Below are positions 27,911 through 62,545 of a DNA stretch of 64,000 nt, piece after piece. How positions within the stretch are numbered: the first letter of the stretch is position 1; every line of letters starts with the position of its first letter. Position numbers and translations under genes: made by a program. The stretch lies in the NCBI GenBank assembly GCA_030740155.1, contig JASLXV010000080.1, forward strand, positions 1 through 64,000, given 5' to 3'. The notes beneath the pieces were generated by a model. The model searched no databases and was not told where the DNA came from. It saw only the letters and a program-made list of their open reading frames with translations. This DNA is from Dehalococcoidia bacterium. GTDB taxonomy: Bacteria; Chloroflexota; Dehalococcoidia; Lucifugimonadales; UBA3495.

Positions 27911-28732
27911 ATGAATAGGATAGAAGAGAGTTTCGCCGCCATTAAACGGGAAGGCCGAACGGGCCTCGTTGTATTCCTGACCGCCGGATTTCCCGACCGG
28001 AAGGCGACCCTGGAACTGGTGCCCAAGCTGGTGGCGGCCGGAGCCGATCTCGTCGAGTTGGGGGTTCCTTTCAGCGATCCGCTGGCCGAGGGGCCGACCA
28101 TCCAGGAGTCCAGTTTCCGGGCCCTGCAGGACCGGGTCTCCCTGGGGGACTGTCTGGGGATGGTGGAGGAACTGCGCGGGCGGGTGCCGGACACTCCCTT
28201 GATACTGATGGGGTATTACAACCCGATCTACCGCTACGGTCTGGCCCAGTTCGGCCAGGATGCCCAGCGGGCCGGCGTCGATGGGCTGATCGTGGTCGAC
28301 CTCCCTCAGTTTGAAATAGGACCCCTGGCGGCCCAATGCACCCCTCGAGACATACCTATCATCCCGCTGCTGGCCCCCACCAGCACCGATGAGAGTATCC
28401 GGGCCTCCTGTGCCGGCGCAGCCACCGGCTTCATATACTGCATCAGTGTCACCGGGGTGACCGGCGCTCGGGAGCAAGTCTCGGACCGGAGCTTTCAGCT
28501 CGTGGATAGGGTACGGGCTCACACCTTGCTGCCTCTGGCCGTTGGGTTCGGCATCTCCCGCCGGGAACACGTGGAGGCGGTCGGCCGGAAAGCCGAGGCC
28601 GCGGTGGTCGGTAGCGCCCTGGTCCGGGTGATGCTAGAATCACCCCGGGACCAGCTCGCCGAGCGCGCCAGCCGGCTTGTCGGGGAGTTGGCCGGCAGGC
28701 TGCAACCGGCAGAGGGAGGACCTAACCGATGA
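27911..28732 (+). CDS. trpA: Tryptophan synthase alpha subunit
   Basis: ELGVPFSDPLAEGPTIQ, MGYYNP, GVTGAR, VGFGIS. Confidence 0.97.
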   Translation: MNRIEESFAAIKREGRTGLVVFLTAGFPDRKATLELVPKLVAAGADLVELGVPFSDPLAEGPTIQESSFRALQDRVSLGDCLGMVEELRGRVPDTPLILMGYYNPIYRYGLAQFGQDAQRAGVDGLIVVDLPQFEIGPLAAQCTPRDIPIIPLLAPTSTDESIRASCAGAATGFIYCISVTGVTGAREQVSDRSFQLVDRVRAHTLLPLAVGFGISRREHVEAVGRKAEAAVVGSALVRVMLESPRDQLAERASRLVGELAGRLQPAEGGPNR

Positions 28733-29091
28733 GCGTTTGCCGCGGCATTAGAGGGGCGACGGTGGCCGAAGAAAACACCGAGGAAGCTATCCAGGGGGCC
28801 ACCAGGGAGTTGCTTGCTCAATTGATCGAGGCCAATCATATCGAGGAAAGAGACGTTGCCGCGACCTACTTCACCACGACGCCCGACCTGACTGCCGGGT
28901 TCCCCGCCACGGCCGCCCGCCAGCTGGGCTGGACCTCCACGGCTCTGCTGGGCTCCTGTGAGATGGCGGTGCCCGGTAGCATGCTCCGGTGTGTCCGGGT
29001 CCTCATCCTCTACAACACCGACAAAGAGCCTCGGGAACTGGTGAACCTGTATCTCAACGGCACGAACGTCCTGAGGGGCGACGACGCCTAG
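28729..29091 (+). CDS. aroH: Chorismate mutase, AroH class
   Basis: RGIRGAT, FTTTPDL..GFPA, LRCVRVL. Confidence 0.93.
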   Translation: MSVCRGIRGATVAEENTEEAIQGATRELLAQLIEANHIEERDVAATYFTTTPDLTAGFPATAARQLGWTSTALLGSCEMAVPGSMLRCVRVLILYNTDKEPRELVNLYLNGTNVLRGDDA

Positions 29092-29256: not shown

Positions 29257-30279
29257 ATGATCGTGGTAATGGCCAGAGACAGCTCCGCGGAAGACCTGGC
29301 CCGGGTCCAGGAACGGATCGAAGGCCGGGGTGTGAGAACCCAAGTCTTCATAGGCGTGGAACGCATCGTGGTAGGGGTCTTGGGAACCATACCCCCGGAC
29401 TTGAAGGACGAGGTCGAGCTTCTGCCGGGAGTCATCGAGGTGGTCCCCATCTCCAAGCCCTATAAGCTGGCCAGCCGGGAGTTCCACCCGGAGGGTTCCA
29501 CGATACAGGTGGGTAACGTCGTGATCGGGGGACCCGACCCGGTGATCATGGCCGGGCCCTGCTCCGTGGAAGACGAAGAGCAGATGGTTGCCACGGCCCG
29601 AGCGGTGAAGGCAGCCGGGGCCGGCCTGCTACGTGGTGGGGCGTACAAGCCGCGCACGTCTCCCTACAGCTTCCGTGGCATGGGCTTGGACGGGCTCAAG
29701 CTCCTCCAGTTGGCCAAGAAGGAAACGGGGTTGCCCATCATCACCGAGGTTATGGCGCCGGCGGACGTGGACACGGTGGCTCAATACGCCGATGTCCTCC
29801 AGATCGGAGCCCGCAACATGCAGAACTATTCACTGCTGGACGAGGTGGGCGCCACCAAAATGCCGGTCATGGTAAAGCGGGGCCTGGCCGCTCCCTACGA
29901 GGAATGGTTGCTGGCGGCGGAGTACGTCTTGGCGGCGGGCAACGACAAGGTCATGCTCTGTGAGCGGGGCATCAGGGGTTTCGAGCAATTCACCCGGTTC
30001 ACCCTGGATGTTGCCGCCATCCCGGTGATCAAAAGGTTGAGCCATCTACCCATCATCGCCGATCCCAGTCATAGCACCGGGAAGTGGTATCTGGTTACCC
30101 CGGTAGCCCTGGCCGCCATCGCCGCCGGGGCTCACGGGCTGATCGTGGAGGTCCACCCCAACCCGGACCTGGCCAAGTGCGACGGTCCCCAGTCCCTCAC
30201 CTTCGAGAACTTCCAAAGCATGATGACGCAGATTAAGGCCGTGGCGGCGGCTTGTCGGGAACCGGCTCCGGCTACCTGA
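29257..30279 (+). CDS. aroF: DAHP synthase type I-beta with N-terminal regulatory domain
   Basis: MAGPCSVE, RGGAYKPRTSPYSF, QIGARNMQN, DPSHSTG. Confidence 0.95.
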   Translation: MIVVMARDSSAEDLARVQERIEGRGVRTQVFIGVERIVVGVLGTIPPDLKDEVELLPGVIEVVPISKPYKLASREFHPEGSTIQVGNVVIGGPDPVIMAGPCSVEDEEQMVATARAVKAAGAGLLRGGAYKPRTSPYSFRGMGLDGLKLLQLAKKETGLPIITEVMAPADVDTVAQYADVLQIGARNMQNYSLLDEVGATKMPVMVKRGLAAPYEEWLLAAEYVLAAGNDKVMLCERGIRGFEQFTRFTLDVAAIPVIKRLSHLPIIADPSHSTGKWYLVTPVALAAIAAGAHGLIVEVHPNPDLAKCDGPQSLTFENFQSMMTQIKAVAAACREPAPAT

Positions 30280-37565: not shown

Positions 37566-37890
37566 CCCGCCGCGTTAGATAATTCCGGCCGGAAATGGGC
37601 CGCCGGGGGGGCGTCAGCGGTAGTCCCGTCGCTTCCCAGCAGGCGGCCCCTGGCCCGCTCCCGGCGCGGGTCGACGGAAACCGCCCCCACCGCCGGGTGC
37701 GGATATGGCTGGGCGTGGGGCTGCGCCACGGGCACGGACGAACGCCCATCGGACAGCCCGCCGCGACTGGGCGGCCTCCTCTCCCGGCACTCGTTGCGCC
37801 CCCTCCACTAGCTGATCTCGGATTGTGGTAACATGTTCCGAAGACTCCCTGCCATCGTGCCGGGAGTCACTTTGGCCATGGAGGCAGCGA

Positions 37891-40203
37891 ATGCCGGACT
37901 ATGAACCCAACATGGTCTTATCCACTCAGGAATTCAGGGTGGTGGGCAGCAGTCCCATCCGACCCGATGGCGCCGATAAAGTTACGGGCCGAGCCCGTTT
38001 TGGAATAGATGCCAGCCTTCCCGGAATGCTGCAAGCCAAGATACTTCGTAGCCCCCACGCCCACGCCCGGATAAAGTCCATCGACACCAGCCGGGCCAAG
38101 GCGCTGCCCGGAGTTCACGCGGTAATTACCGCCGCCGATTTCCCCGAGGTCTCGGGCCGGGTGGCGGACTTGGCCGAAGGGTCGATACACAACATGGGGT
38201 TCCTGAGCAGGAACATCATGGCTCGGGAGAAAGCGCTCTACAAAGGTCATGCGATCGCGGCGGTGGCGGCAACCAATCTGCATGTCGCGGCGGAGGCGCT
38301 GGCCCTCATCGACGTGGACTACGAGGTCCTCACGCCGGTCATGAACGCCCAGGAGGCCATGAAAGGCGGGGCGCCCCTCCTGCACGAGCGGCTCGCCAGC
38401 TTGACCAACCCGGCGGTGCGGCCGGGGGGGGTCATGGACGATGACGACCCCAGCGAGGGCTCCAACATCGCCAACCACTTCGAGTTCCGCCTGGGAGACG
38501 TGGCGAAAGGGTTCGCGGAGGCCGACGTTATCGTTCAGCATGAGACCTCCACCTCGGCCGTGCACCAGGGGTACATCGAGCCCCATACCGGCACCGCCAT
38601 GTGGCAATCCGACGGCAGCCTGATCATCTGGTCCAGCACCCAGGGCCACTTCACCGTACGGGAGATGACCGGCCGGCTCCTGGGTATTCCCGCCTCCAAG
38701 ATCAAGGTCATCCCCATGGAGGTCGGAGGCGGGTTCGGCGCCAAGGGCATCATCTACGTGGAGCCGGTGGCGACCGTCCTGGCGCGCCTGACCGGGCGCC
38801 CGGTGAGGGTGACCATGACCCGGACGGAGGTGTTCGAGTCTTCGGGGCCGACCTCCGCCAGCCACATAAAAGTCAAGCTCGGCGCCACCAAAGAAGGGAA
38901 GCTCGTCGCGGCGGAGGCCGAGCTGATATACGAGGCCGGGGCCTTTCCGGGTTCGCCGGCGGTCCCCGGCTGCGTTTGCATGATGTCGGCCTACGATATC
39001 CCCAACGCCCGCCTGGAAGGGTACGACGTGGTGGTGAACACGCCCAAGTCGGCGGCCTACCGGGCCCCCGGTTCTCCGGTCTCCGCCTTCGCCATGGAGA
39101 CCGCCATCGACAAGCTGTGCGAGAAGCTGGGGATGGACCCGCTGGATTTCCGTCTGCTCAACAGCTCCAAGGAAGGAACCCGCCAGGTCACCGGTCCGGT
39201 GTTCCCCCGCATCGGCTTTATCGAAACCCTGCAGGCGGCCAAAGCTCACCCCCACTACTCAGCGCCTCTGGAAGGGCCCAACCGGGGTAGGGGCGTGGCC
39301 AGCGGCTACTGGCGCAACAACACCGGTCCGTCCAGTGTCCTGGTTATCGTCAATTCCGATGGAACCGTTAGCCTGGTGGAGGGCTCTGTCGACCTTAGCG
39401 GCACCAGGACGACCCTGGCGCAACAGCTCGCCGAAGTCCTGGGAATCCAGGTTGAGGATGTAAGGCCCGCGGTGGCGGACACCGATTCCATTGGCTTTAC
39501 TTCCAACAGCGGGGGAAGCGGCGCCACTTTCAAGACTGGGTGGGCCGTGCACCATGCCGGCGAGGACGTGAAACGGCAGATGATCCAGAGGGCCGCGAAG
39601 GTCTGGGAGATCCCGGAGGAAGACGTGGAGTACCGGGATGGCGTCCTCCGGCACAAGTCCGACCCGGAACTGCAACTGACCTTCAAGCAAGTAGCGGGCC
39701 GGCAGAACGGCACCGGCGGTCCCATCACGGGACGGGCCGGCGTCAACCCCGGGGGCGTGGGGCCGGCCCTGGCAACCCACATCGTGGACGTGGAGGTGGA
39801 CCCGGAGACCGGCAAGGTGTCGATCCTCCGCTATACCGCCCTCCAAGATGTTGGCAAGGCGGTCCACCCCGATATCGTCGCCGGACAAATACAGGGGGGA
39901 GCCACCCAGGGCATCGGTTGGGCGCTCAATGAAGAGTATTACTTCAACAATCAGGGCGCCATGATGAACAGCACCTTCCTGGACTATCGGATGCCCACCA
40001 GCTTGGACCTCCCCATGATCGACACGGTCATCGTCGAGGTTGCCAACCCCGGCCATCCCTACGGTGTGCGGGGTGTGGGTGAAGTGCCCATCGTCCCGCC
40101 GATGGCGGCGATATCCAACGCCATCCACCGGGCGGTCGGAGTCCGGATGAACCGATTGCCCATGAGTCCTGGCCGGGTCCTCGAAGCCCTCTGGGAGAAG
40201 TAA
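37891..40203 (+). CDS. Xanthine dehydrogenase-family molybdopterin-binding subunit
   Basis: KVTGRARF, RSPHAHARI, HQGYIEPH, GGGFGAK, AYRAPG, RGVGE. Confidence 0.95.
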   Translation: MPDYEPNMVLSTQEFRVVGSSPIRPDGADKVTGRARFGIDASLPGMLQAKILRSPHAHARIKSIDTSRAKALPGVHAVITAADFPEVSGRVADLAEGSIHNMGFLSRNIMAREKALYKGHAIAAVAATNLHVAAEALALIDVDYEVLTPVMNAQEAMKGGAPLLHERLASLTNPAVRPGGVMDDDDPSEGSNIANHFEFRLGDVAKGFAEADVIVQHETSTSAVHQGYIEPHTGTAMWQSDGSLIIWSSTQGHFTVREMTGRLLGIPASKIKVIPMEVGGGFGAKGIIYVEPVATVLARLTGRPVRVTMTRTEVFESSGPTSASHIKVKLGATKEGKLVAAEAELIYEAGAFPGSPAVPGCVCMMSAYDIPNARLEGYDVVVNTPKSAAYRAPGSPVSAFAMETAIDKLCEKLGMDPLDFRLLNSSKEGTRQVTGPVFPRIGFIETLQAAKAHPHYSAPLEGPNRGRGVASGYWRNNTGPSSVLVIVNSDGTVSLVEGSVDLSGTRTTLAQQLAEVLGIQVEDVRPAVADTDSIGFTSNSGGSGATFKTGWAVHHAGEDVKRQMIQRAAKVWEIPEEDVEYRDGVLRHKSDPELQLTFKQVAGRQNGTGGPITGRAGVNPGGVGPALATHIVDVEVDPETGKVSILRYTALQDVGKAVHPDIVAGQIQGGATQGIGWALNEEYYFNNQGAMMNSTFLDYRMPTSLDLPMIDTVIVEVANPGHPYGVRGVGEVPIVPPMAAISNAIHRAVGVRMNRLPMSPGRVLEALWEK

Positions 40204-40234
40204 GGTACCGGCACAACTATATATAGGCGGCCAC

Positions 40235-40510
40235 ATGGCGGAAGTATGGATCCCTCCTCGAATGCAAAGCCTGACCGGAGGGCGAAAGACAGTCCAAATA
40301 GCTGGCGAAACGGTCCGGCAGATAGTCAACAACCTGGAGAAGGAGTTCCCTGGGACCAAGGCCTGGCTCTGCGATGAAGATCTGGACGATCTCATGCTGG
40401 GTATTGCGGTAATTGTCGATGGCGAGAGCAGCCAGTTGGGGTTACTCGAGCCGGTCAAGGAAAGCAGCGAGGTCCATTTCATTCCCGCTCTCGGCGGCGG
40501 AGCGGCGTAA
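40235..40510 (+). CDS. MoaD/ThiS-family ubiquitin-like protein
   Basis: Beta-grasp pattern ending FIPALGGGAA. Confidence 0.85.
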   Translation: MAEVWIPPRMQSLTGGRKTVQIAGETVRQIVNNLEKEFPGTKAWLCDEDLDDLMLGIAVIVDGESSQLGLLEPVKESSEVHFIPALGGGAA

Positions 40511-42050: not shown

Positions 42051-42072
42051 CAGCGAAATGAGGAACAGCACC

Positions 42073-42339
42073 ATGATATCTGATAGCAAAGTGGATGCCC
42101 TGAAGCGGCTGAGCTACGTCGAGGGGCACCTATCCGGCATTCGTAAGATGCTGGAAGAAGACAAGTATTGCGTCGACGTCCTCAAGCAGACCTACGCCGT
42201 CAGGCGGGCCATCGAGAAGATCGAAGGTATCATGCTGGAGGGTCACCTGCACTCCTGCGTGGTGGAAGGGATCAAGACTGGGCGCGAGGACCAGGTGCTC
42301 GACGAATTGAAAGACCTGTACTTTCTTGCCAACAAATAA
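42073..42339 (+). CDS. csoR: CsoR/RcnR-family copper-sensing repressor
   Basis: KRLSYVEGHLSGIRKM, YCVDVLKQ, HLHSC. Confidence 0.92.
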   Translation: MISDSKVDALKRLSYVEGHLSGIRKMLEEDKYCVDVLKQTYAVRRAIEKIEGIMLEGHLHSCVVEGIKTGREDQVLDELKDLYFLANK

Positions 42340-42384
42340 CCGGGCCAACAAATGACCGGGCCGATTCTAGATAGAGGTTCTTAC

Positions 42385-44907
42385 ATGGCTACTGGATCTC
42401 AGCAAGCTGAACGCGTAACTCTGCCGGTGGAGGGGATGACCTGTGCCTCGTGTGTTGCCCATGTCGAGTCGGCGCTCAAGGAGGTCCCGGGCGTCGCCGG
42501 CGTCAGTGTAAACCTGGCTACCGAAAAGGCCGCCGTGGAGTTTAGCGAGCGGGAGGTACCTTTCGAGCAGCTTCGCGAGGCCGTGAGCCAGGCCGGGTAC
42601 AAGATTTCCACTTCTCGAATGACGCTGAACCTGGGCGGCATGACCTGCGCCTCCTGCGTCGCCCACGTCGAGTCGGCCCTGAAAGGGGTCTCGGGGGTGA
42701 CTGAGGCCGCCGTCAACCTGGCCACCGAAAAAGCCACGGTGGACTACGTCGCGGGTATAGCCGAGCTGGACGATTTCCGCCAGGCAGTCGAGGAGGCCGG
42801 ATACCGGGTCGAAGGATTGGATACGGACACCGGGAGCACCAAGGAGGAGATGGATAGGCTGGCCAAGGTCAAGGAGATCCGGGCCTTGGGAAACAAGGTG
42901 ATGCTGGCCGGAGCCGGAGCTATCCTCCTTTTCCTGGGGACCTTCGGTGCTTTTCCGTGGGTTGATTCTTTCATGGAGCGGGGGTTCTACCCGTTCTTGC
43001 TGTGGGCCGTGGCTACGCCAATCCAGTTCTGGGCTGGATGGATGTTCTACTCTTCCGGAATACCCCCCGTGCGGCACCGGCGGGCCAACATGCACACGCT
43101 GATCGCGATGGGCACCAGCACCGCATACCTCTACAGCGTGGCCGTGGTGTTGCTGGACGCGGTGTCGCCTCAGGTCTTGGTGGACAACGGAATCGGTACC
43201 GAGGTCTACTTCGATACGGCGGCGCTGATCATCGCCTTGATAATGCTGGGGCGCTGGCTGGAGGCGCGGGCCAAGGGCAAGACATCGGAGGCCATCCGGC
43301 GGCTCATGGGCATGCGCCCCAATACCGCCCGCTTGATCCGCGACGGCCGGGAGGTGGACGTTCCGATCGATACGGTGGTCCCCGGCGATATAATCCTGGT
43401 GCGTCCCGGAGAGAAGGTGCAGGTGGACGGAAAGGTGACCGAGGGCTACTCGACGGTAGACGAGTCGATGCTGACCGGAGAGAGCATGCCGGTGGACAAG
43501 CAGCCCGGCATGGTGGTCTACGGCGCCACTCTCAACAAGCACGGCGCTTTCCAGTTCAGCGCCACCAAGGTTGGAAAGGACACGGTGCTGGCCCAGATCA
43601 TCCGCCTGGTGGAGGATGCTCAGGGCTCCAAGGCCCCGATCCAGCGGCTGGCCGACCAGGTGGCGGCCTACTTCGTGCCCGCCGTCATCGCCACCGCCCT
43701 GGCCGCCTTCCTGTTCTGGCTGCTGCTGGGACCGGCCCCGGCCTTGACCTTCGCCACCCTGGTGTTCGTGGCGGTGCTGATCATCGCCTGCCCCTGCGCC
43801 CTCGGCCTGGCCACTCCCACCGCCATTATAGTGGGCACCGGCAAGGGAGCCGAGCTTGGGGTGTTGATCCGGGGCGCTCAGGCCTTGGAGATTTCCCACA
43901 AGGTCAACGTGGTGGTGCTGGACAAGACCGGTACCCTGACCACCGGGAGGCCGGTGGTTACCGACCTGGTCGCCGTGGGCACCTCCGAGGATGAACTGCT
44001 GCGGCTGGCGGCCTCGGCGGAGCGGGGCTCGGAACATCCCCTCGGCGAGGCCATCGTCCTGGAGGCCCAGGCGCGGGACCTGGAGCTGAAGCCGGCGGAA
44101 CGTTTCCAGGCAATACCCGGGCTTGGCATCGAGGCCCAAATCGATGGACGCCTGCTGCAATTCGGCAACCAGGCTCTCATGGAAGCCGGCAATGTCCCGC
44201 TCAATGGCCTGGCAGAAAGGGCCCATGAGCTGGCCATCCAGGGCAAGACGCCCATGTTCCTGGCGTCCGAAAACGCCGCCCTGGGAGTCATCGCCGTGGC
44301 CGACACCCTGAAGCCGACTTCCCGGGACGGTGTGGCCCGGTTGCAGCAGATGGGACTGGAAGTGGTGATGTTGACCGGCGACAATGCTCAGACCGCCAGG
44401 GCGATCGGCGAACAGTTGGGCGTGGACCAGGTTGAGGCCGAGGTCTTGCCCCAGGACAAGGCGGCGGTGGTGCGCCGGCTTCAATCTCAGGGGAAAGTGG
44501 TGGCCATGGTGGGCGATGGCATCAACGACGCCCCCGCTCTGGCCCAGGCGGACGTGGGACTGGCCATGGGCACGGGCACCGACGTGGCCATGGAGTCGGC
44601 GGATATTACCCTGATGCGGAGCGACGTTGGCGGGGTAATCACCGCGTTCAACCTGAGCCGCCAGACCATCCGGACGGTCAAGCAGAACCTGTTTTGGGCC
44701 TTCTTTTACAACGTGATGCTGATTCCGGTGGCGGCCGGGGCCCTGTACCCGCTGTTCCAGGCTGTGGGCGGCGTCCCCGGCAGCATGGACTTCTTCTTCG
44801 GCGACCAGGGGTTCTTGAACCCGGTGCTGGCGGCCCTGGCCATGGCCTTCAGCTCGGTTACCGTGGTGAGCAACTCCTTGCGCCTGCGGAGAGCCAAGGT
44901 TGTTTAG
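42385..44907 (+). CDS. copA: Cu(I)-translocating P1B-type ATPase with two HMA domains
   Basis: Two GMTCASC, TGES, CPCALG, DKTGT, SEHPL, GDGIND, YN and MxxSS motifs. Confidence 0.97.
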
Positions 44908-45633: not shown

Positions 45634-48258
<2,625 letters not shown>

Positions 48259-48300
48259 GCGAGTCACCACCTATTTCGGGTTCCCGCCCGCCGGGCGCCG

Positions 48301-48381
48301 TTAGGGGCCGGCGGGCGAGGGAACGGTCATAATGATGAGGCGCCGCCCCACTTGCCGCTTCCGGCGCCGGGCTGGCGGCAT
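48301..48381 (-). CDS. Candidate upstream ORF of secA (26 aa)
   Basis: GAGGAGG RBS, ATG, MPPARRRKRQVGRRLIIMTVPSPAGP-stop inside a hairpin. Confidence 0.4.
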   Translation of the reverse strand: MPPARRRKRQVGRRLIIMTVPSPAGP

Positions 48382-48794
48382 CCAGGGACCTCCTCTTGGA
48401 AGAACAACAGACATTATCTCTATTGTAGCGAAAGTAGACGGCCGCTGCACACTGGCTCGGAAGGGTAATGTGCGCAGAAAAGCCGGGAGAGGGCCCTTCA
48501 AAGAGCTTTTGCCTGACTGGTAAATGGCGGCGAATCCCGCCCCGGTAAGACGGCGGGCGAGAACTTCAGCATCGCCTTGGCGGGGGGCCTATGTTTCTGA
48601 ATAACCGGTACTCAGGTTGAGGGAGGGGTCTACAGGCTGCGTAAATGGCCCGGTGGGTTGTCTGGTAAACGGCTTTCCACCGGAGAAGATATGGGACAGC
48701 CCCTCCCCGCGAGCGGCCCCGATGCAATCAGGGCCGGGATGACGGACCGGGCGCCAAGCTGCTCAAGAGACACTGGGCTGGATTGCAAGGCCAC

Positions 48795-49868
48795 CTACGA
48801 GACGGTACTCTGAACCGCCTGGCCAACTCTCTCGTGGGTCCAGTTCAGCAGCTCCTCGGTCTCTTCCCATCCGATGCAGGCGTCGGTGATCGAGACGCCG
48901 TACTTCAATCGGGGCGGGATTCCATTTAAACTCTGGTTGCCCGGGTTCAGGTGGCTCTCCAGCATGCAGCCGATGATGTCGGTGTTGCCGGCCACGCGCT
49001 GCTCCACCACGGATTTTAAGGCAATGGCCTGCTTGGAATAGTCTTTGGCGGAATTGCCGTGGCTGCAGTCCACCAGGAGATGGGAGCGGACTCCCGCGGC
49101 TTCGAGCTGCATCTTGGACTCGGCGATGGCCTTGGCGCCGTAGTTCGGTCCGTGCCGGCCACCCCGGAGCACGAGGTGCCCGTCCGGGTTGCCGGTGGTA
49201 CGGACGATCGCCGTCCGGCCTTCGTGGTCGAGGCCTAGAAAAGCGTGGCTGGAACGCGCGGAAACCGTCGCGTCGACGGCTATCTGAGCATTGCCGTCGG
49301 TGCCGTTCTTGAACCCCACAGGCATACTCAGCCCGCTGGCCATCTGACGATGGGTCTGGCTCTCGGTGGTACGGGCGCCGATGGTCGCCCAGGTCACCAG
49401 GCCCGCCAGATACTGGGGCACCACGGGGTCGAGAAACTCCGAGCCGGCGTACAATCCCATCTCGGCGATCTTCAAGAGCAAAGTACGGGCCCGGTGCATG
49501 CCTGTCTCAATATCAAAGCTGTCGTCCAGGTGGGGATCGTAGATGAACCCCTTCCAGCCCACCGTTGTCCGCGGCTTCTCAAAGTAGACGCGCATCACTA
49601 TCAGCAGCCGGTCACTCAGCTTCTTCGAGGATTCGAGAAGCCGCCCCGCGTACTCCAGGGCAGCTTTCTCGTCATGAATCGAGCATGGCCCGACGACCAG
49701 CATGAACCTTGAGTCCAGGCCATTCAAGATGTCGCGGAGCTGCTGCCGGCCGGATAGCACGGTTTTCTCCGCTTCCGGGCTGACCGGCAGTTTGTTGACC
49801 AGATCTAATGGTGAGATGAGCTGCATGGTGCTCTCGATGTGTACGTCCCTGGCGGCTGATGGCTGCAT
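48795..49868 (-). CDS. DAHP synthase type I-alpha (AroF/G/H-like)
   Basis: VGPCSIHD, MRVYFEKPRTTVGWKG, IGARTTESQTHR, VDCSHGNS, YGVSITDACIGW. Confidence 0.96.
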   Translation of the reverse strand: MQPSAARDVHIESTMQLISPLDLVNKLPVSPEAEKTVLSGRQQLRDILNGLDSRFMLVVGPCSIHDEKAALEYAGRLLESSKKLSDRLLIVMRVYFEKPRTTVGWKGFIYDPHLDDSFDIETGMHRARTLLLKIAEMGLYAGSEFLDPVVPQYLAGLVTWATIGARTTESQTHRQMASGLSMPVGFKNGTDGNAQIAVDATVSARSSHAFLGLDHEGRTAIVRTTGNPDGHLVLRGGRHGPNYGAKAIAESKMQLEAAGVRSHLLVDCSHGNSAKDYSKQAIALKSVVEQRVAGNTDIIGCMLESHLNPGNQSLNGIPPRLKYGVSITDACIGWEETEELLNWTHERVGQAVQSTVS

Positions 49869-49970
49869 GTCTTCGCTCCCCTTAGTCTCGTGGTAGCGCC
49901 GTTCGCCGGCTTCCGGGGGTCCACCTTTCGGTATTGATCGTGCTCTGATCCGGCATGATTGCCTCAACAC

Positions 49971-50002
49971 AACAAAACACCCCAACCGCTGCCGGTTGGG
50001 GT
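49971..50002 (-). terminator. Attenuator terminator hairpin
   Basis: Minus strand ACCCCAACCG-GCAG-CGGTTGGGGT followed by GTTTTGTT. Confidence 0.85.
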
Positions 50003-50031
50003 CTTGGTGTTTCCGGGAATCTTGTTCTAGG

Positions 50032-50124
50032 TCATCTGTTTTCGGGCACCAAACCTCGGCCGGCAGCGCTGGAGCCAGTAAAAAGCCAGTAATACCCGTA
50101 AAACCGGTGTGAACTGATCATCAT
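50032..50124 (-). CDS. Aromatic amino acid attenuator leader peptide (30 aa)
   Basis: MMISSHRFYGYYWLFTGSSAAGRGLVPENR; clustered F/Y/W codons; overlaps the antiterminator arm. Confidence 0.85.
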   Translation of the reverse strand: MMISSHRFYGYYWLFTGSSAAGRGLVPENR

Positions 50125-50129
50125 TATAG

Positions 50130-50157
50130 ATAATACCGCTAATTTCGCGGTTGTCAA
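50130..50157 (-). promoter_or_regulatory. Promoter of the leader-DAHP synthase transcript
   Basis: TTGACA-16 nt-TATTAT; the leader ATG follows after 5 intervening nt. Confidence 0.75.
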
Positions 50158-50264
50158 TGCCCGCTACCCCAACCCGGTGGCAGCGGCCGACCACCCGCCA
50201 CGGAGGCTTTGGTTGGCTTGACGGCCTGCCGGGGTCCCGCGGGGTCGAAGCCCCGGGCCCGCCG

Positions 50265-51275
50265 CTACTCCGCGGTTCCCGTCCGGACGGCGCCGATCAA
50301 CTCGGTCACGTGGCGAACTCCCGACTGCTCCAGGTATTCCCGGAGCCCTTCCAGGATGCGGAAAGGAGACCCCATGTCGACCAGGTTGGCGCTGCCCACC
50401 TGGACCGCTGTGGCGCCCGCCAGGATGAACTCGAGGGCGTGGGCAGCTTCGAAGATACCCCCGCAGCCGATGATCGGCACGTCCACGGCCTGGGCGGTGC
50501 GGTACACCAGAGAAATGGCAATCGGACGCAGTCCATGGCCGGAAAGGCCGCCGGCGCCGGCGCCGAGCACCGGCCGGCGGGTCTCCAGGTCGATGGACAT
50601 CGCCGGGATGGTGTTGGAGATGGTCAGGGCATCGGCTCCCGCGTCCACCGCTGCCCGAGCGATCTCGGTGATGTCGGGCACGTTGGGCGACAGCTTTACC
50701 AAAACCGGCAGGTCGGTCTTGGCCCTCACGGCCCCCACCGCTTCCCCCGCGAGCTTGGCGCTATGGCTGAACATGGCGCCGTTCTCGATATTGGGGCAGC
50801 TCAGGTTGATTTCCAGGGCCTGAAACCCGCTGGCACCCTGGGTCATGGCCGTCATCTCACCGAATTCCGCGACGCTTTCGGCGGCCAGGCTCAGCACCAC
50901 GGTGGTGCCCAGCTCGGCCCACTGAGGGGCAGCGTCGGAAAGGGTGGCCTCGATACCCGGATTGGCCAGGCCGACAGAGTTGAGGAAAACGAATTCCCCG
51001 GCCGCAAATGCCCGGCGAAAGGATTGTGGATACCAGCGCGGCTCCGGGTTGCCCTCCCTTGGATGGCGGGAGACGGTCTTGGGTATCACGGCGCCCAACA
51101 GGCTCAAGTCCAGCTCCGGGGGCATGCCCCGGCCGTATCCGTCGTAGCCGAAGGTGCCGGAGGCGATTATCACCGGGCTGGCTATATGCAGGTGGTGCCG
51201 GTTCCGGGGCGCCAAGTCCACCGCAAGGCCGACATTCTGAGACGCCTCCGGAACTCCGGCAACCTCTTTACTCAT
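50265..51275 (-). CDS. pyrD: Dihydroorotate dehydrogenase family 1 (probably 1B)
   Basis: [36 protein letters not shown]; start overlaps the rpoC stop. Confidence 0.92.
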
Positions 51276-54200
51276 CGGGCTCGCCGTCGACTTCCTTTCC
51301 GCCGTCATCGCCGCTGCCGGACTCCTCTGCCACCGGGGTGTTGTCGTCCGGGGTGTTCTCGTCGAGGATGGGGTCGCCGCTGCCGGACTCCCCGGCCACC
51401 GGGGCGGCATCGCTAGAGTCTTCCCCGCCAAAGATATTGTCCACCTCACCGGGGTCTATATCCTCGGCGCCTTCCTGAAAGAAGGGGTGGCCCGAGGAAG
51501 GTGGCGGTCCCTCCGAGATGGGGAACCGTATATCTTCGGGCCCACTGGGAATTCCCAGCCAGCCGCCTGGGGCCACCGTCAGCTCCGAAATGATCTCCGG
51601 CTCCAAGAGTTGCTCCATGCCTGGGGTATCGATGCGAGCCGGGATCAAGCGGCCGATGATTACGTTTTCCTTTAAACCGAGCAGCCAGTCCTGGGCGCCG
51701 CTGACCGCCGCCTGGGTGAGAACCCTGGTGGTCTCCTGGAAAGATGCCGCTGACAGGAAGCTATCGGTGAGCAGAGAGGCCCGGGTAACCCCCAGCAGCA
51801 CTGGCTTGGCCGTGGCGGGCTCCCCACCCTCGGCCAACACTTTGGCGTTCTTCTCCTGGAACTCGAATTTGTCCACCATCTGACCCGGAATAAAGTCGGA
51901 GTCTCCGGTGGATTCCACCTGGACCCGCCGCAGCATCTGGCGCAGGATTATTTCGATGTGTTTGTCGTGAATGCTGACGCCCTGGGATAGGTACACCTGC
52001 TGAACCTCATCCACCAGGTACCGTTGCAGATCGTCTTTGCCCCCGATATGAAGGATGTCATGGGGATTCAACCGGCCGCCGATGAGGGCGTCGCCGGCCT
52101 TGACCTGGGCGCCGTCGCTGACCAGGATGTGGGCCGATGCGGGAATGAGGTGTTCCCGCTCCTCCACGTCCTCCCAGATGATGGAGATGCCTTCTTTGTT
52201 TAGATCCACCCGGCCTCCCATGTTCGCCACCACCTCTTCAGCAGGCGTGGGATCATCTTCAGCGGCGGCGCCATTTTCACCGGACAAGGAAATGACGGTG
52301 CTGGCCAGGACCATGCCTGGCTCCACGTACTCTCCCTGTTCGACGAGTATCTGGGCGTCCTTCGGGAGGGAGTAGTCCTCCCGGAACTCCTCCCGGCTAA
52401 CCATCTTTAGCCGCCGGCCGTCTTCGTCGACCTCTATCTCCACCGTGCCGTCGATGTCCGCCAAGATGGCGGCCCCTTTGGGGACACGGGCTTCGAACAG
52501 CTCTTCCACTCGGGGCAGGCCGCTGGTGATGTCCAGGCCGGCAACGCCTCCGGTGTGGAAGGTCCTCATGGTCAGCTGGGTGCCCGGCTCGCCGATGCTC
52601 TGGGCGGCGATGATGCCCACCGCCTGGCCTTCTTCCACCGTGAACCCGGTGGCCGGCAACCGGCCGTAACACATTTGGCAAACGCCTCGGTGGGCTTCGC
52701 AGTTCAGCGGTGACCGCACTGGGATCTCGTTCACGCCGGCTTCCACCAACTGGTCGGCGATACGTTTGTCGATATCCTGGTTCCGGTCTACCAGTATCTC
52801 CCCGGTCTCTGGATGAGCAACGGGGGCCGCCGAGTACCGGCCCACCAGGCGATCTCGCATCGACACATGCATTGGATCGTCGGGACGGACGTATACCCAA
52901 TAGGCGTCATAGGTGCCGCAGTCGCTCTCCAGGACGATTACTTCCTGAGCTATGTCGATCAACCGGCGGGTCAGATACCCGCTGTCGGCGGTCCGCAACG
53001 CGGTGTCGGCCAGACCTTTGCGGGCTCCGTGGGTGGAGATGAAGTACTCCAGCGCGGTCAGCCCCTCGCGGAAGCTGGACTTGATGGGCAGGTCGATGAT
53101 CCGCCCCTTGGGGTTGCTCATCAGGCCGCGCATGCCGGCCATCTGTTTGATCTGGGAAATGTTACCCTTGGCCCCCGACCGCGCCATTACCGCGATGCCG
53201 CCGTAGTTGGACAACTCCTCTTCCACTAGTGCCGTGGTCTGGTCCGAGGCCTTGGTCCAGACCTCCACCGCATTGTTGTAGCGTTCCTCCTCGGAGATGA
53301 GGCCGGAGAGGAACTGCTCATCGAGATTGGCGACCAGCTTGGTTGCCCGGTTCAATATCTCCGGCTTTTTGACCGACACCTGGATGTCGTTGATGGCGAT
53401 GGTGATGCCTGAAGCGGTGGCGTAGTGAAAGCCCAACTCCTTAATCGCGTCCAACGCCTGCGCCGTCTCGTCGTTGGTTAGACTATGGTAGAGTTCCGCG
53501 GTCAGCTCTTTCAGGCAGCCTCGGTCCATTAACTTGTTTTGGAAGCCGATGGACGAAGGCAAGATCTCGTTGAATATCAGACGGCCCAAGGTGGTTTCCG
53601 TCCAGTCGTCACCATCGGTGCCCTCGACGGTCCGCACGAAGATGCGGGCCTGGAGGCCGATGAGCCCCGACGCATGGGCGATCCGCGCCTCGTCGAAGTC
53701 GTAGAACCGGCGCCCCTCGCCAACGCTGCCTTCCCGCAACTCGGTGAGGTAGAAGCAGCCCATTACCATGTCCAGGGTGGGTGCGACCAGCGGGTCCCCG
53801 GAGGCGGGCGACAGCATATTGTGGGTGCTCAGCATGGTCTCGCGGGCTTCCAGCACCGCCATCCTCGAAAGAGGCACGTGGACCGCCATCTGGTCGCCGT
53901 CGAAGTCCGCGTTGAACGCGGAGCACACCAGGGGGTGAATCTGGATGGCGTTGCCTTCGATGAGCACCGGCATGAAGGCCTGGATGCCCAGCCGGTGCAA
54001 GGTGGGCGCCCGGTTCAGCATCACCGGCCGGTCTTTGATCACGTCTTCCAGGATGTCCCAAACCTCGGGCCGGGCCCGCTCCACCATTCGCTTGGCGTTC
54101 TTGATGTTGGGGGCGATTCCCAAGACGGCCAGGCGGTGCATCACGAAGGGCTTGAACAGCTCCAGCGCCATCCGCTTGGGCAGGCCACACTGGTGCATCT

Positions 54201-61120: not shown

Positions 61121-62545
61121 ATGCTAGATTTGATCATTCGCGGCGGTCAGGTGGTAGCCCCATGGGGAGTGGGCGAATGGGACGTGGCGGTCCAGGGTGA
61201 GAAGATCGTCGCCGTCGCCGCCCCGGGGACCCTGACCGAAGATGCGGTCCGGATTATTGACGCCTCCGGCAAGGTTGTCGTGCCCGGTGGAATCGAGCCG
61301 CATGCCCACATCGCCGCGCCGATAATGGGGCAGGGAGACCTGAAAACCGCTCCACCGGAGCAGGTGAGCCGGGCCGCGCTCTTCGGCGGCACCACCACCC
61401 TTCTGGACTTTGCCATCCAATTTCCCGGCACCGATGTCAACCAGGCAATCCAGGAGCGAACGTCCGTCTGGAAAGGGAAATCCTACTCCGACTACGCCCA
61501 CCACTTAATGCTGTGCGGCGCGCTTTCGGACAACATGTTTGGCCAACTGGGTGAGGCTGTTGAAGACGGATTCTCCACGTTTAAGATCTTCACCACCAAC
61601 GTCCGCCCGGCCTCCAGCTCAGGCGAGCCGCGCATGGTCCGCATGGGCCACCTGCACGACCTCATGGAGCGGGTGCAGCGCCTGGGGGCCATGCTGATGG
61701 TCCACTCGGAGGACGACGACATGGTCCAGCACATGTACGAGAAGCTGGCCCAAGAGGAGCGAACCGAGTGGTGGAACATGCACTTGGTGCACAGCAACGA
61801 GTCCGAGGACGTGTCCATCCGGCGGGTGTTGCGGGTCTCCGAGTGGACCGGATCGCCGGTGTACTTCGTCCACGTGAGCGCCAAGCAGGGGCTGGAAGCG
61901 ATACAGGAGGCCCGGGCCAAGGGGATGCCGGTCTACGGTGAGACCCTCCACAATTACTGCTGCTTCAACTCCGACGACTACAAAGAGGAGTACGGGATGA
62001 AGTACCACACCTATCCCTCGCTCAAGTCGGAGGAAGACCGGAGGGCGCTCTGGGACGGCATTGTTCGGGGCGGCCTGAGCACCATGGCCACCGACGAATA
62101 CTGCACCTCTTGGAAGGTCAAGGTCGCCGGCAAGCTGGTATCCAACGTAACCGGGGGGCACAACGGCGCTGAAACCCGGCTCGGGATCACCTACAGCGAA
62201 GGGGTCTCCAAACGGGGGATGTCCCTGCAGCGGTTCGTAGACGTGACCTCGGCCAACGCCGCCAAGATCATGGGGCTCTACCCGCGCAAGGGTGTCATCG
62301 CACCGGGCAGCGATGCCGACATCGTGTTCATCGACCCCGGCTTCAAGAGGCCGCTGGCCATGTCTGACTTCCACATCACGGACTACAGTATCTGGGAAGG
62401 GTTTGACGTCGCGGGCTGGCCGGTGCTGACGATTCTGCGGGGCAAGGTGGTGGTGGAGAACGGCGAACTCAAGTCCAGCCTGGGCAGCGGCAAGTTCATT
62501 CCTCGCAAGGTGGACCCGGAGTTCGCCAGCCGGCCTGCCTGCTAG
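61121..62545 (+). CDS. Dihydropyrimidinase/hydantoinase-like amidohydrolase
   Basis: PGGIEPHAH, GGTTT, FKIF, VHSE, VHVS, KGVIAPGSDADIV. Confidence 0.9.
   Translation: MLDLIIRGGQVVAPWGVGEWDVAVQGEKIVAVAAPGTLTEDAVRIIDASGKVVVPGGIEPHAHIAAPIMGQGDLKTAPPEQVSRAALFGGTTTLLDFAIQFPGTDVNQAIQERTSVWKGKSYSDYAHHLMLCGALSDNMFGQLGEAVEDGFSTFKIFTTNVRPASSSGEPRMVRMGHLHDLMERVQRLGAMLMVHSEDDDMVQHMYEKLAQEERTEWWNMHLVHSNESEDVSIRRVLRVSEWTGSPVYFVHVSAKQGLEAIQEARAKGMPVYGETLHNYCCFNSDDYKEEYGMKYHTYPSLKSEEDRRALWDGIVRGGLSTMATDEYCTSWKVKVAGKLVSNVTGGHNGAETRLGITYSEGVSKRGMSLQRFVDVTSANAAKIMGLYPRKGVIAPGSDADIVFIDPGFKRPLAMSDFHITDYSIWEGFDVAGWPVLTILRGKVVVENGELKSSLGSGKFIPRKVDPEFASRPAC

What the first reader, a model, noticed from the sequence alone, without database searches (positions are those of the whole stretch)
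49971..50157. Leader-peptide attenuator that can sense Phe, Tyr and Trp together, probably on a leaderless mRNA, upstream of DAHP synthase
Seen on the minus strand: promoter TTGACA-16-TATTAT (50157-50130), then after 5 nt and with no RBS a 30-codon ORF (50124-50032) MMISSHRFYGYYWLFTGSSAAGRGLVPENR, with 6 aromatic codons out of 8 (2 Phe, 3 Tyr, 1 Trp). Segment 50068-50047 (CGCTGCCGG...TTGGTG) is complementary to 50009-49987 (CACCAA...CCGGCAGCG). That second segment overlaps a terminator hairpin with a U-rich tail (50002-49971), so the two structures are mutually exclusive. Established: this is the geometry of trpL/pheL-type attenuation. A ribosome stalled at the control codons leaves the antiterminator free, while one reaching the stop masks it. 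Inference: one leader integrates all three end products at the pathway entry step, uses leaderless initiation, and occurs in a Chloroflexota-like genome where I do not know of a described example. It is below the ORF-track size cutoff.
Basis: partly seen in the sequence, partly recalled or inferred. Interest (0 to 1): 0.85.

Follow-up and report, generated by a model that had tools for sequence, protein, structure and literature searches.

The report
Aromatic leader-peptide attenuator before DAHP synthase
A tiny reading frame packed with tyrosine and phenylalanine codons, plus one tryptophan codon, and a predicted switchable transcription stop signal sit in front of a gene for the first enzyme of aromatic amino-acid synthesis in this uncultured bacterium and many relatives; they likely let a stalling ribosome turn the gene on when those amino acids run short, a textbook mechanism.

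Summary
The 30-codon ORF (control run FYGYYWLF) is the only short ATG ORF in the genome with 6 aromatic codons in 8. The downstream gene is a type I-alpha DAHP synthase. A leader of this kind with a terminator precedes the ortholog in 41 of 53 distinct Dehalococcoidia/Chloroflexota loci. The terminator covaries strongly and the antiterminator core moderately. Folding with a masked ribosome gives the expected switch. It is very likely a classical ribosome-coupled transcription attenuator (0.9).

Tyr and Phe are the conserved signals. Trp is optional: one codon in 18 of 41 leaders, never tandem, yet enriched and at seven different positions, so three-way sensing is plausible but unproven (about 0.45). 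The start codon lies 6-10 nt after the -10 box in 37 of 41, with no Shine-Dalgarno site here: leaderless or nearly so, start site unmapped.

Precedents exist for the same enzyme: Corynebacterium aroR-aroF and Acholeplasma uORFC-13-1. My searches found no paper for Chloroflexota, but this scan noted the device before on other DNA, including three other Dehalococcoidia genomes. Verdict: new member of a known kind; interest 0.32.

The parts
50130..50157 (-). Sigma-70-type promoter, -35 TTGACA (50157-50152), 16-nt spacer, -10 TATTAT (50135-50130)
   Evidence: a like pair of hexamers 6-10 nt before the leader start in 37 of 41 leaders
50032..50124 (-). Leader ORF, 30 codons from ATG 50124 or 29 from ATG 50121 (the start that aligns with relatives); no Shine-Dalgarno site
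50080..50103 (-). Control codons F8 Y9 G10 Y11 Y12 W13 L14 F15
   Evidence: stalling simulated at F8, Y12, W13, F15
50074..50079 (-). Segment 1 core (Thr-Gly codons), pairs with the segment 2 core as a small protector hairpin
   Evidence: 82% of cells paired, 4 of 6 pairs with a two-sided change, 4 of 500 shuffles; second register tried (first failed)
50047..50068 (-). Segment 2, 5' strand of the antiterminator, inside the leader ORF; conserved core 50064-50060
49987..50009 (-). Segment 3, 3' strand of the antiterminator; includes the 5' arm and loop of the terminator
49969..50002 (-). Intrinsic terminator: 10-pair stem 50002-49979 and U-rich tail
   Evidence: 92.7% of cells paired, 5 of 10 pairs with two-sided changes, 0 of 500 shuffles
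49876..49881 (-). Shine-Dalgarno-like site of the DAHP synthase gene, 7 nt before its ATG
48795..49868 (-). Regulated gene: type I-alpha 3-deoxy-7-phosphoheptulonate (DAHP) synthase, 357 aa, apparently monocistronic (secA starts about 500 nt further down)
   Evidence: PRK12755 503 bits, cut-off 343; TIGR00034 468 bits, cut-off 173

Best explanation
This is a short aromatic-codon reading frame overlapping a predicted antiterminator/terminator pair in front of a type I-alpha DAHP synthase gene, and it likely works as a ribosome-coupled transcription attenuator that turns the gene on when charged Tyr- or Phe-tRNA (here possibly also Trp-tRNA) runs short. Inferred steps: transcription starts at about 50125-50121, and a ribosome loads without a Shine-Dalgarno site on one of the two ATGs at or just behind the 5' end. 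If charged aromatic tRNAs are scarce, it stalls in codons 8-15, covers segment 1 and leaves segment 2 free to pair with segment 3 as that emerges, so the terminator cannot form and the polymerase reads into the gene. If they are plentiful, the ribosome moves over segment 2 to the stop at 50034-50032, segments 3 and 4 form the terminator, and a transcript of about 150 nt is released. With no ribosome, segment 1 would pair with segment 2 and termination would be favoured. Shown: the anatomy, its conservation, covariation and computed folds. Inferred: translation of the leader, the start site, stalling and the regulatory response.
For: Conservation: 30 of 61 genomes hold the ortholog and 24 of those 30 carry leader plus terminator; 17 more among 23 further distinct Chloroflexota loci; 41 of 53 in all. 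The leader travels with the DAHP gene while the upstream neighbour changes (pyrD, chorismate mutase, trpA, others; read by eye). Coding signature: Tyr uses both codons equally (TAT 72, TAC 70) and Phe both (TTT 55, TTC 20); 32 of 41 have 5 or more aromatic codons in 8 in frame, 0 of 41 in either other frame (leaders were picked for this, so it is partly circular); 218 of 451 control-zone codons are Tyr/Phe against 16 of 650 outside. Structure: terminator covaries; antiterminator core 95% paired, 10 of 15 pairs with a two-sided change, 2 of 500 shuffles; protector core 82%. Switch: on the transcript cut at the terminator loop, the terminator's 5' arm is sequestered (>0.5) in 37 of 41 leaders with a ribosome at the last control codon and in 1 of 41 with it at the stop; the 2:3 duplex beats shuffles (p<0.05) in 30 of 41. 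For the window, stalls at F8, Y12 and W13 make the antiterminator the minimum-energy fold in all 4 settings; ribosomes at G22 or the stop give the terminator in all 4. A covariance model finds one copy in each of 19 genomes, all before this gene (training members), and among the 31 genomes without the ortholog only one weak partial match, a plain terminator. Contigs from RNA libraries of two studies bridge the terminator (X1, X2, X6): compatible with read-through, not proof of it.
Against: No direct data on start site, translation, termination or response; only contigs, no raw reads. At equilibrium on the full transcript the terminator still wins in 40 of 41 leaders with the ribosome at the last control codon (0.84 in the window), so the switch must rest on folding order; my kinetic proxy is crude and, without a ribosome, gave the terminator in only 2 of 4 settings. 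Antiterminator covariation is modest (score reached by 28 of 500 shuffles), and swapping segments between structural families lowered pairing only slightly. 11 of 41 leaders do not beat shuffles for the 2:3 duplex. Six leaders have only 3 aromatic codons in their best 8, some with Cys in place of Tyr. 12 of 53 loci lack the device. Strong-promoter genes of this genome show no leaderless peak (4 long ORFs start 6-10 nt after a -10 box, 30 at 29-39 nt, of 425 promoter-like sites), so the initiation mode is unusual for the host. In C. glutamicum aroR, Tyr codons did not confer a Tyr response, so codon content does not prove which amino acids are sensed.
Confidence: 0.9

Rival explanations
1. Three-way sensor: the single Trp codon at position 13 gives a real response to Trp limitation in addition to Tyr and Phe.
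For: W13 lies two codons before the conserved last Phe, where a stall yields the antiterminator in all 4 settings. Trp occurs in the control zone of 18 of 41 leaders, in 9 of 15 clusters, at seven different positions. With one leader per cluster it makes up 7.8% of non-Phe/Tyr zone codons against 1.0% outside the zone, 1.1% off-frame and 1.3% in long ORFs of the genome.
Against: 23 of 41 leaders lack it; only 7 of 41 have it within the last five control positions; never tandem. Against a base-composition null the excess is about twofold (18 vs 8.5), like Cys TGC (20 vs 11.7), so drift from Tyr through Cys can explain part of it. The trp operon has its own T-box. In aroR one of two encoded amino acids was not sensed.
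Confidence: 0.45
2. The hairpin is a constitutive terminator of the upstream pyrD transcript; the ORF and the complementarity are incidental and the DAHP gene has its own promoter.
For: pyrD ends 108 nt before the -35 box on the same strand; the terminator dominates at equilibrium.
Against: The terminator lies downstream of the only promoter-like site in the region; promoter, ORF and terminator stay with the DAHP gene across different upstream neighbours; the aromatic run is unique in the genome.
Confidence: 0.03
3. The peptide acts itself, as a nascent-chain arrest peptide sensing free aromatic amino acids (TnaC-like, recalled) or as a product in trans.
For: The motif FTG..AG.GLV recurs in many leaders.
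Against: Those residues are the codons that form segments 1 and 2; in L015, L033, L036, L042 and L043 a stop codon falls right at the segment 2 core while the downstream bases and terminator persist, so the RNA, not the peptide tail, is conserved. Aromatic residues swap freely among Y, F and W.
Confidence: 0.05
4. A protein- or ligand-controlled RNA switch (riboswitch, TRAP-like or T-box-like) in which the ORF is not translated.
For: No Shine-Dalgarno site before the leader ORF; no leaderless peak among ordinary genes.
Against: No Rfam family near its threshold in 48000-51500; the T-box search finds three sites elsewhere and none here; start codon, frame and synonymous variation are kept although the start-to-cluster distance varies by whole codons.
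Confidence: 0.02

Closest known systems
Corynebacterium glutamicum aroR-aroF attenuator (Neshat et al. 2014, not held; seen only as summarised in passages of PMC11802643, and of PMC4046766)
   Same: Leader peptide with Phe/Tyr codons before a DAHP synthase gene; read-through on ribosome stalling.
   Different: aroR has Phe-Tyr-Phe and responded to Phe, not Tyr; here 5-7 aromatic codons, Tyr-dominated, often with one Trp; another phylum. Sequence homology could not be tested.
uORFC-13-1 motif before aroF in Acholeplasma (PMC8632094, passages)
   Same: Predicted uORF with own promoter and terminator before a DAHP synthase gene; attenuation proposed.
   Different: Has an RBS and a U run coding at least one Phe; 24 representatives in Acholeplasma and unassigned environmental sequences; untested there too.
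E. coli trpL and pheL attenuators (PMC11802643 passages; four-segment model recalled)
   Same: Control codons, 1:2 / 2:3 / 3:4 alternative pairings, intrinsic terminator.
   Different: Single amino acid, branch-specific operons, Shine-Dalgarno-led (recalled); no Rfam match here.
Leaderless attenuator peptides of Actinobacteria: Corynebacterium ilvB leader (PMC5784534 passages); mycobacterial poly-Cys leaderless ORFs (10.1101/834739, search listing only)
   Same: Leader ORF starting at the transcript 5' end with no RBS; the ilvB leader holds several related amino acids.
   Different: Those hosts have many leaderless genes (PMC9031893 abstract passage for Mycobacterium); this genome shows no leaderless peak among ordinary strong-promoter genes.
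Shewanella aroF 5' motif listed as 'attenuator sensing tyr-tRNA' (PMC2659441 table passage)
   Same: Attenuation proposed for a DAHP synthase gene.
   Different: Prediction resting on an E. coli paper; no leader sequence seen by me.

Membership tests
Classical leader-peptide transcription attenuator | Short leader ORF with a run of codons for the pathway's end products, upstream of a biosynthetic gene | tested here: met
Classical leader-peptide transcription attenuator | Intrinsic terminator between leader ORF and gene, conserved with compensatory changes | tested here: met
Classical leader-peptide transcription attenuator | Mutually exclusive antiterminator whose 5' strand is free when the ribosome sits on the control codons and covered at the stop | tested here: met
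   (computed folds; covariation moderate)
Classical leader-peptide transcription attenuator | Protector (1:2) hairpin | tested here: inconclusive
   first register failed; a short second register holds at 4 of 500 shuffles
Classical leader-peptide transcription attenuator | One promoter upstream of the leader ORF, none between terminator and gene | tested here: met
   (consensus scan only)
Classical leader-peptide transcription attenuator | Leader is translated and read-through responds to charged-tRNA level | not testable with these tools
   only assembled contigs of RNA libraries were available
Leaderless mRNA | Start codon at or within a few bases of the transcript 5' end, no Shine-Dalgarno site | tested here: inconclusive
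   geometry fits (6-10 nt after -10 in 37 of 41; no pairing), but the 5' end is not mapped
Multivalent Phe+Tyr+Trp sensor | Codons for all three amino acids kept in the control zone across orthologs | tested here: inconclusive
   Tyr 40, Phe 38, Trp 18 of 41; Trp enriched but not positionally fixed
Rfam leader, riboswitch and T-box families | Match to a curated covariance model | tested here: not met
   4 chance-level matches, none on the leader; T-boxes only elsewhere
C. glutamicum aroR (as a homolog) | Shared descent of leader sequence | not tested
   aroR sequence not retrieved; primary paper not held

The most novel reading that the evidence does not exclude
A single leader integrates Tyr, Phe and Trp at the entry to the shikimate pathway, with Trp codons gained repeatedly and independently; and this lineage, whose ordinary genes are Shine-Dalgarno-led, reserves leaderless or near-leaderless initiation for its attenuator peptides (the aromatic leader and at least two Cys-rich leaders share the geometry), which would load the ribosome at once and tighten coupling to the polymerase.
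Probability: 0.3. Interest if true: 0.52.

Novelty: new member of a known kind. Interest (0 to 1): 0.32.

Why it matters
It extends ribosome-coupled attenuation of amino-acid synthesis to marine Dehalococcoidia, for which my literature searches found no description, and it shows how a lineage with no TrpR match in this genome (94% complete) can tie the first shikimate step to its end products while using T-boxes for trp and ilv genes. The family is a natural allelic series (0 or 1 Trp, Tyr-to-Cys swaps, a clean deletion) for asking how many codons, and where, a multivalent attenuator needs. The mechanism itself is textbook and already described for this enzyme, so a specialist would be interested rather than surprised.

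Tried and rejected
Rfam scan of 48000-51500: nothing above chance. First protector register (control codons paired with 50050-50043), which is part of the window's minimum-energy fold, is not conserved (59.9% paired, 258 of 500 shuffles) and was dropped as a family feature. Cross-family swap of segments 2 and 3 was not decisive. A per-codon accessibility profile before segment 3 is made rose only from about 0.13 to 0.42 towards the last control codons and was nearly flat across codons 7-17 in the window: weak positional information. Genome-wide search for a leaderless peak among long ORFs: none (ATG starts and strong promoters only). My genome-wide leader-plus-terminator scan missed the known positive, so its blank for other aromatic, His or Leu leaders means nothing. 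No aromatic leader seen before pheA or tyrA (700 nt read) or before the type I-beta DAHP synthase (by eye). RNA runs: none of 8 laid runs has a contig over 50098-50240, and X1 and X2 stop at 50096-50097, but they are one study, coverage is patchy and the one probable DNA run also stops short (50061), so this says nothing on the start site. Runs with small shares were not used for habitat. The careful tree did not finish; the quick tree served only to see that Trp-bearing leaders are scattered; no donor or order of events is claimed. Leaders outside the order (L060, L086, L094, L115, L122, L129, L131, L132) have terminators, but the 2:3 duplex beat shuffles in only 1 of 8, so they are not counted as support. 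Look-ups of earlier notes by place and by sequence were empty.

Full report
1. Observation. On the minus strand the window reads TTGACA-16-TATTAT at 50157-50130, the only promoter-like site in 49000-51500, followed after 5 nt by two tandem ATGs (50124, 50121) opening a 30-codon ORF that stops at 50034-50032. Codons 8-15 are F Y G Y Y W L F. A 10-pair terminator (50002-49979) with a U-rich tail follows. Segment 50068-50047 pairs with 50009-49987; the region folds at -31.3 kcal/mol, the terminator at -20.7 and the 5' part alone at -26.2. It is not chance: of 31,271 short ATG ORFs in the genome only this one, from its two ATGs, has 6 aromatic codons in 8, and its 2:3 duplex beats all 200 shuffles.

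2. Context. The gene below (49868-48795) is a type I-alpha DAHP synthase with its own Shine-Dalgarno site 107 nt past the terminator. pyrD lies above. The best named relatives (59-71% identity) are Dehalococcoidia/Chloroflexota; the label SAR202 comes from an earlier AI note and was not tested. The genome has a second, type I-beta DAHP synthase at 29257-30279 after trpA and a chorismate mutase, without a visible leader, no TrpR match (genome 94% complete), and three T-boxes: two before ilvB-like genes and one before the trp operon, the last below Rfam's cut-off (I read its specifier as UGG by eye).

3. Relatives. 30 of 61 genomes carry the ortholog; 24 of the 30 have an aromatic leader ORF and terminator, 6 do not (one of these is cut at a contig end). 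One search gave 25 Chloroflexota loci, of which 2 duplicate earlier ones; 17 of the other 23 have the device, 1 has lost it by deletion, 4 have a terminator-less short ORF and 1 has a terminator without an aromatic ORF. Total: 41 of 53. I chose these 41 and their start codons by hand, which makes counts of aromatic content and spacing partly circular. Upstream neighbours differ. Of 55 non-Chloroflexota loci, 3 have short ORFs with 7-8 aromatic codons in 8; of 24 further phylum-wide loci, 5 have 4 or more. A covariance model built on 30 leaders found one copy in each of 19 genomes, all training members, and no convincing copy in the 31 genomes without the gene; it does not see the divergent leader families.

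4. Translation signal. In the control zones 140 Tyr and 78 Phe codons fall among 451, against 7 and 9 among 650 outside. Both Tyr and both Phe codons are used, and the other two frames never reach 5 aromatic codons in 8. In 37 of 41 leaders the start codon lies 6-10 nt after the -10 box (8 nt in 11, 10 nt in 13); 4 have longer 5' regions. With the usual start about 7 nt after the -10 box (own knowledge), the mRNA is leaderless or has up to 4 leading bases. The second ATG aligns with relatives, so a start site just below the first ATG would not refute the model. Ordinary long ORFs of this genome show no such peak, but Cys-rich leaders before a sulfite-reductase-like and a ThiF/MoeB-like gene (named by eye from their sequences) start 8 and 11 nt after a -10 box.

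5. Structure. 30 of the 41 leaders were aligned; 11 with different terminator sequences were left out. Terminator: 92.7% of cells paired, 5 of 10 pairs with two-sided changes, 0 of 500 shuffles. Antiterminator: core helix 95% paired, second helix 72%, outer extension 37%; 10 of 15 pairs with two-sided changes (2 of 500), covariation score 28 of 500. Protector: the first register failed, a short second one holds (82%, 4 of 500). These shuffles ignore relatedness and are not probabilities. With a ribosome masked to 9 nt past the A-site, the terminator's 5' arm is sequestered in 37 of 41 leaders when stalled at the last control codon, in 1 of 41 at the stop, and in 29 of 41 with no ribosome. Against this, on full transcripts at equilibrium the terminator wins in 40 of 41 even in the stalled state, so folding order must matter. 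In the window, stalls at F8, Y12 and W13 give the antiterminator in all 4 settings, F15 in 3 of 4, G22 and the stop in none, and no ribosome in 2 of 4.

6. Which amino acids. Tyr is present in 40 and Phe in 38 of 41 best windows; Trp in 18, single, never tandem. Trp sits at seven different offsets in 9 of 15 clusters; one-per-cluster resampling gives 7.8% of non-Phe/Tyr zone codons against 1.0% outside, but only about twice a composition null, like Cys. In the window W13 is well placed. I put a real Trp response here at about 0.45. The aroR case, where Tyr codons gave no Tyr response, is the caution.

7. Expression. Eleven runs hold the stretch or part of it; 8 were laid, all as contigs. Contigs of X1, X2 (one study) and X6 (another) bridge the terminator with 31 or more letters on both sides. 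This fits read-through but cannot show strand, ends or level, and DNA may be present in such libraries.

8. Mechanism and rivals. Best: classical ribosome-coupled transcription attenuation sensing Tyr and Phe (0.9), with Trp as an open addition. Rivals: incidental ORF before a constitutive terminator (0.03), an active peptide (0.05), an untranslated RNA switch (0.02); see those fields.

9. Known systems and novelty. C. glutamicum aroR before aroF (passages of PMC11802643, and PMC4046766; one passage of PMC3890552; the primary paper was not held), Acholeplasma uORFC-13-1 before aroF (passages of PMC8632094), a Shewanella aroF listing (passages of PMC2659441) and the leaderless ilvB leader (passages of PMC5784534) cover the mechanism, the target enzyme and leaderless initiation. 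Passages of PMC4833913, PMC2965389 and PMC9031893 name no Chloroflexota attenuator. Ten full-text searches gave no paper describing such a leader in Chloroflexota or a tested Phe+Tyr+Trp leader; the library lacks most subscription papers, including the comparative surveys of attenuation (one seen only in a reference list, others recalled), and I opened no supplements, whose tables may list such cases. Earlier AI notes of this scan report the same device in three other Dehalococcoidia genomes and in cyanobacteria and archaea, among 380 notes holding the search words; I did not check those loci and do not count them as support.

10. Verdict. Real, conserved, very probably functional; a new member of a known kind. 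Interest 0.32. The boldest reading left open (three-way sensing plus leaderless initiation reserved for attenuator peptides) has probability about 0.3 and would deserve about 0.52.

Noticed in passing
window 29257-30279 (+): Second DAHP synthase, type I-beta (PRK08673), after trpA (to 28732) and an AroH-type chorismate mutase (28729-29091); no leader/terminator seen.
   Followed up: partly
G000:C74:52224-52553 (-); G000:C85:84468-84730 (+) and 61425-61685 (-): T-boxes before the trp operon (specifier read by eye as Trp; below the Rfam cut-off) and before two ilvB-like genes (read as Leu and Ile).
   Followed up: partly
G000:C99:28614 (+), C25:122594 (-), C23:56203 (-): Cys-rich short ORFs followed by U-tailed hairpins before a sulfite-reductase-like, a ThiF/MoeB-like and a cysK-like gene; the first two start 8 and 11 nt after a -10 box, like the aromatic leader.
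   Followed up: partly
L035, 80 nt before the DAHP start: The promoter is kept but the whole leader and terminator are gone, apparently deleted between short direct repeats seen in close relatives such as L008.
   Followed up: no
L008, L016, L031, L037, L038 leaders: One clade has Cys codons in place of several Tyr control codons (up to 4 in 10): decay, or a change in what is sensed.
   Followed up: no
L050, L052, L053, L074, between chorismate mutase and DAHP synthase: A short ORF ending in a shared LFT...S.SY pattern, starting near or overlapping the upstream stop, with no promoter or terminator seen: a possible relic or translational variant.
   Followed up: no
L060, L086, L094; L122, L129, L131, L132: Aromatic-rich leaders with terminators before type I-alpha DAHP synthase in a Desulfatitalea, a Latescibacterota and a deltaproteobacterial record and in other Chloroflexota; antiterminator support in only 1.
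   Followed up: partly
window 50260-50230 (-): GC-rich inverted repeat with a UUCG loop right after the pyrD stop, no U tail.
   Followed up: no
window 37825-40510 (+) and 42058-44907 (+): A molybdopterin oxidoreductase large subunit followed by a MoaD/ThiS-like protein, and a CsoR-like regulator before a copper-type P-ATPase (named by eye).
   Followed up: no
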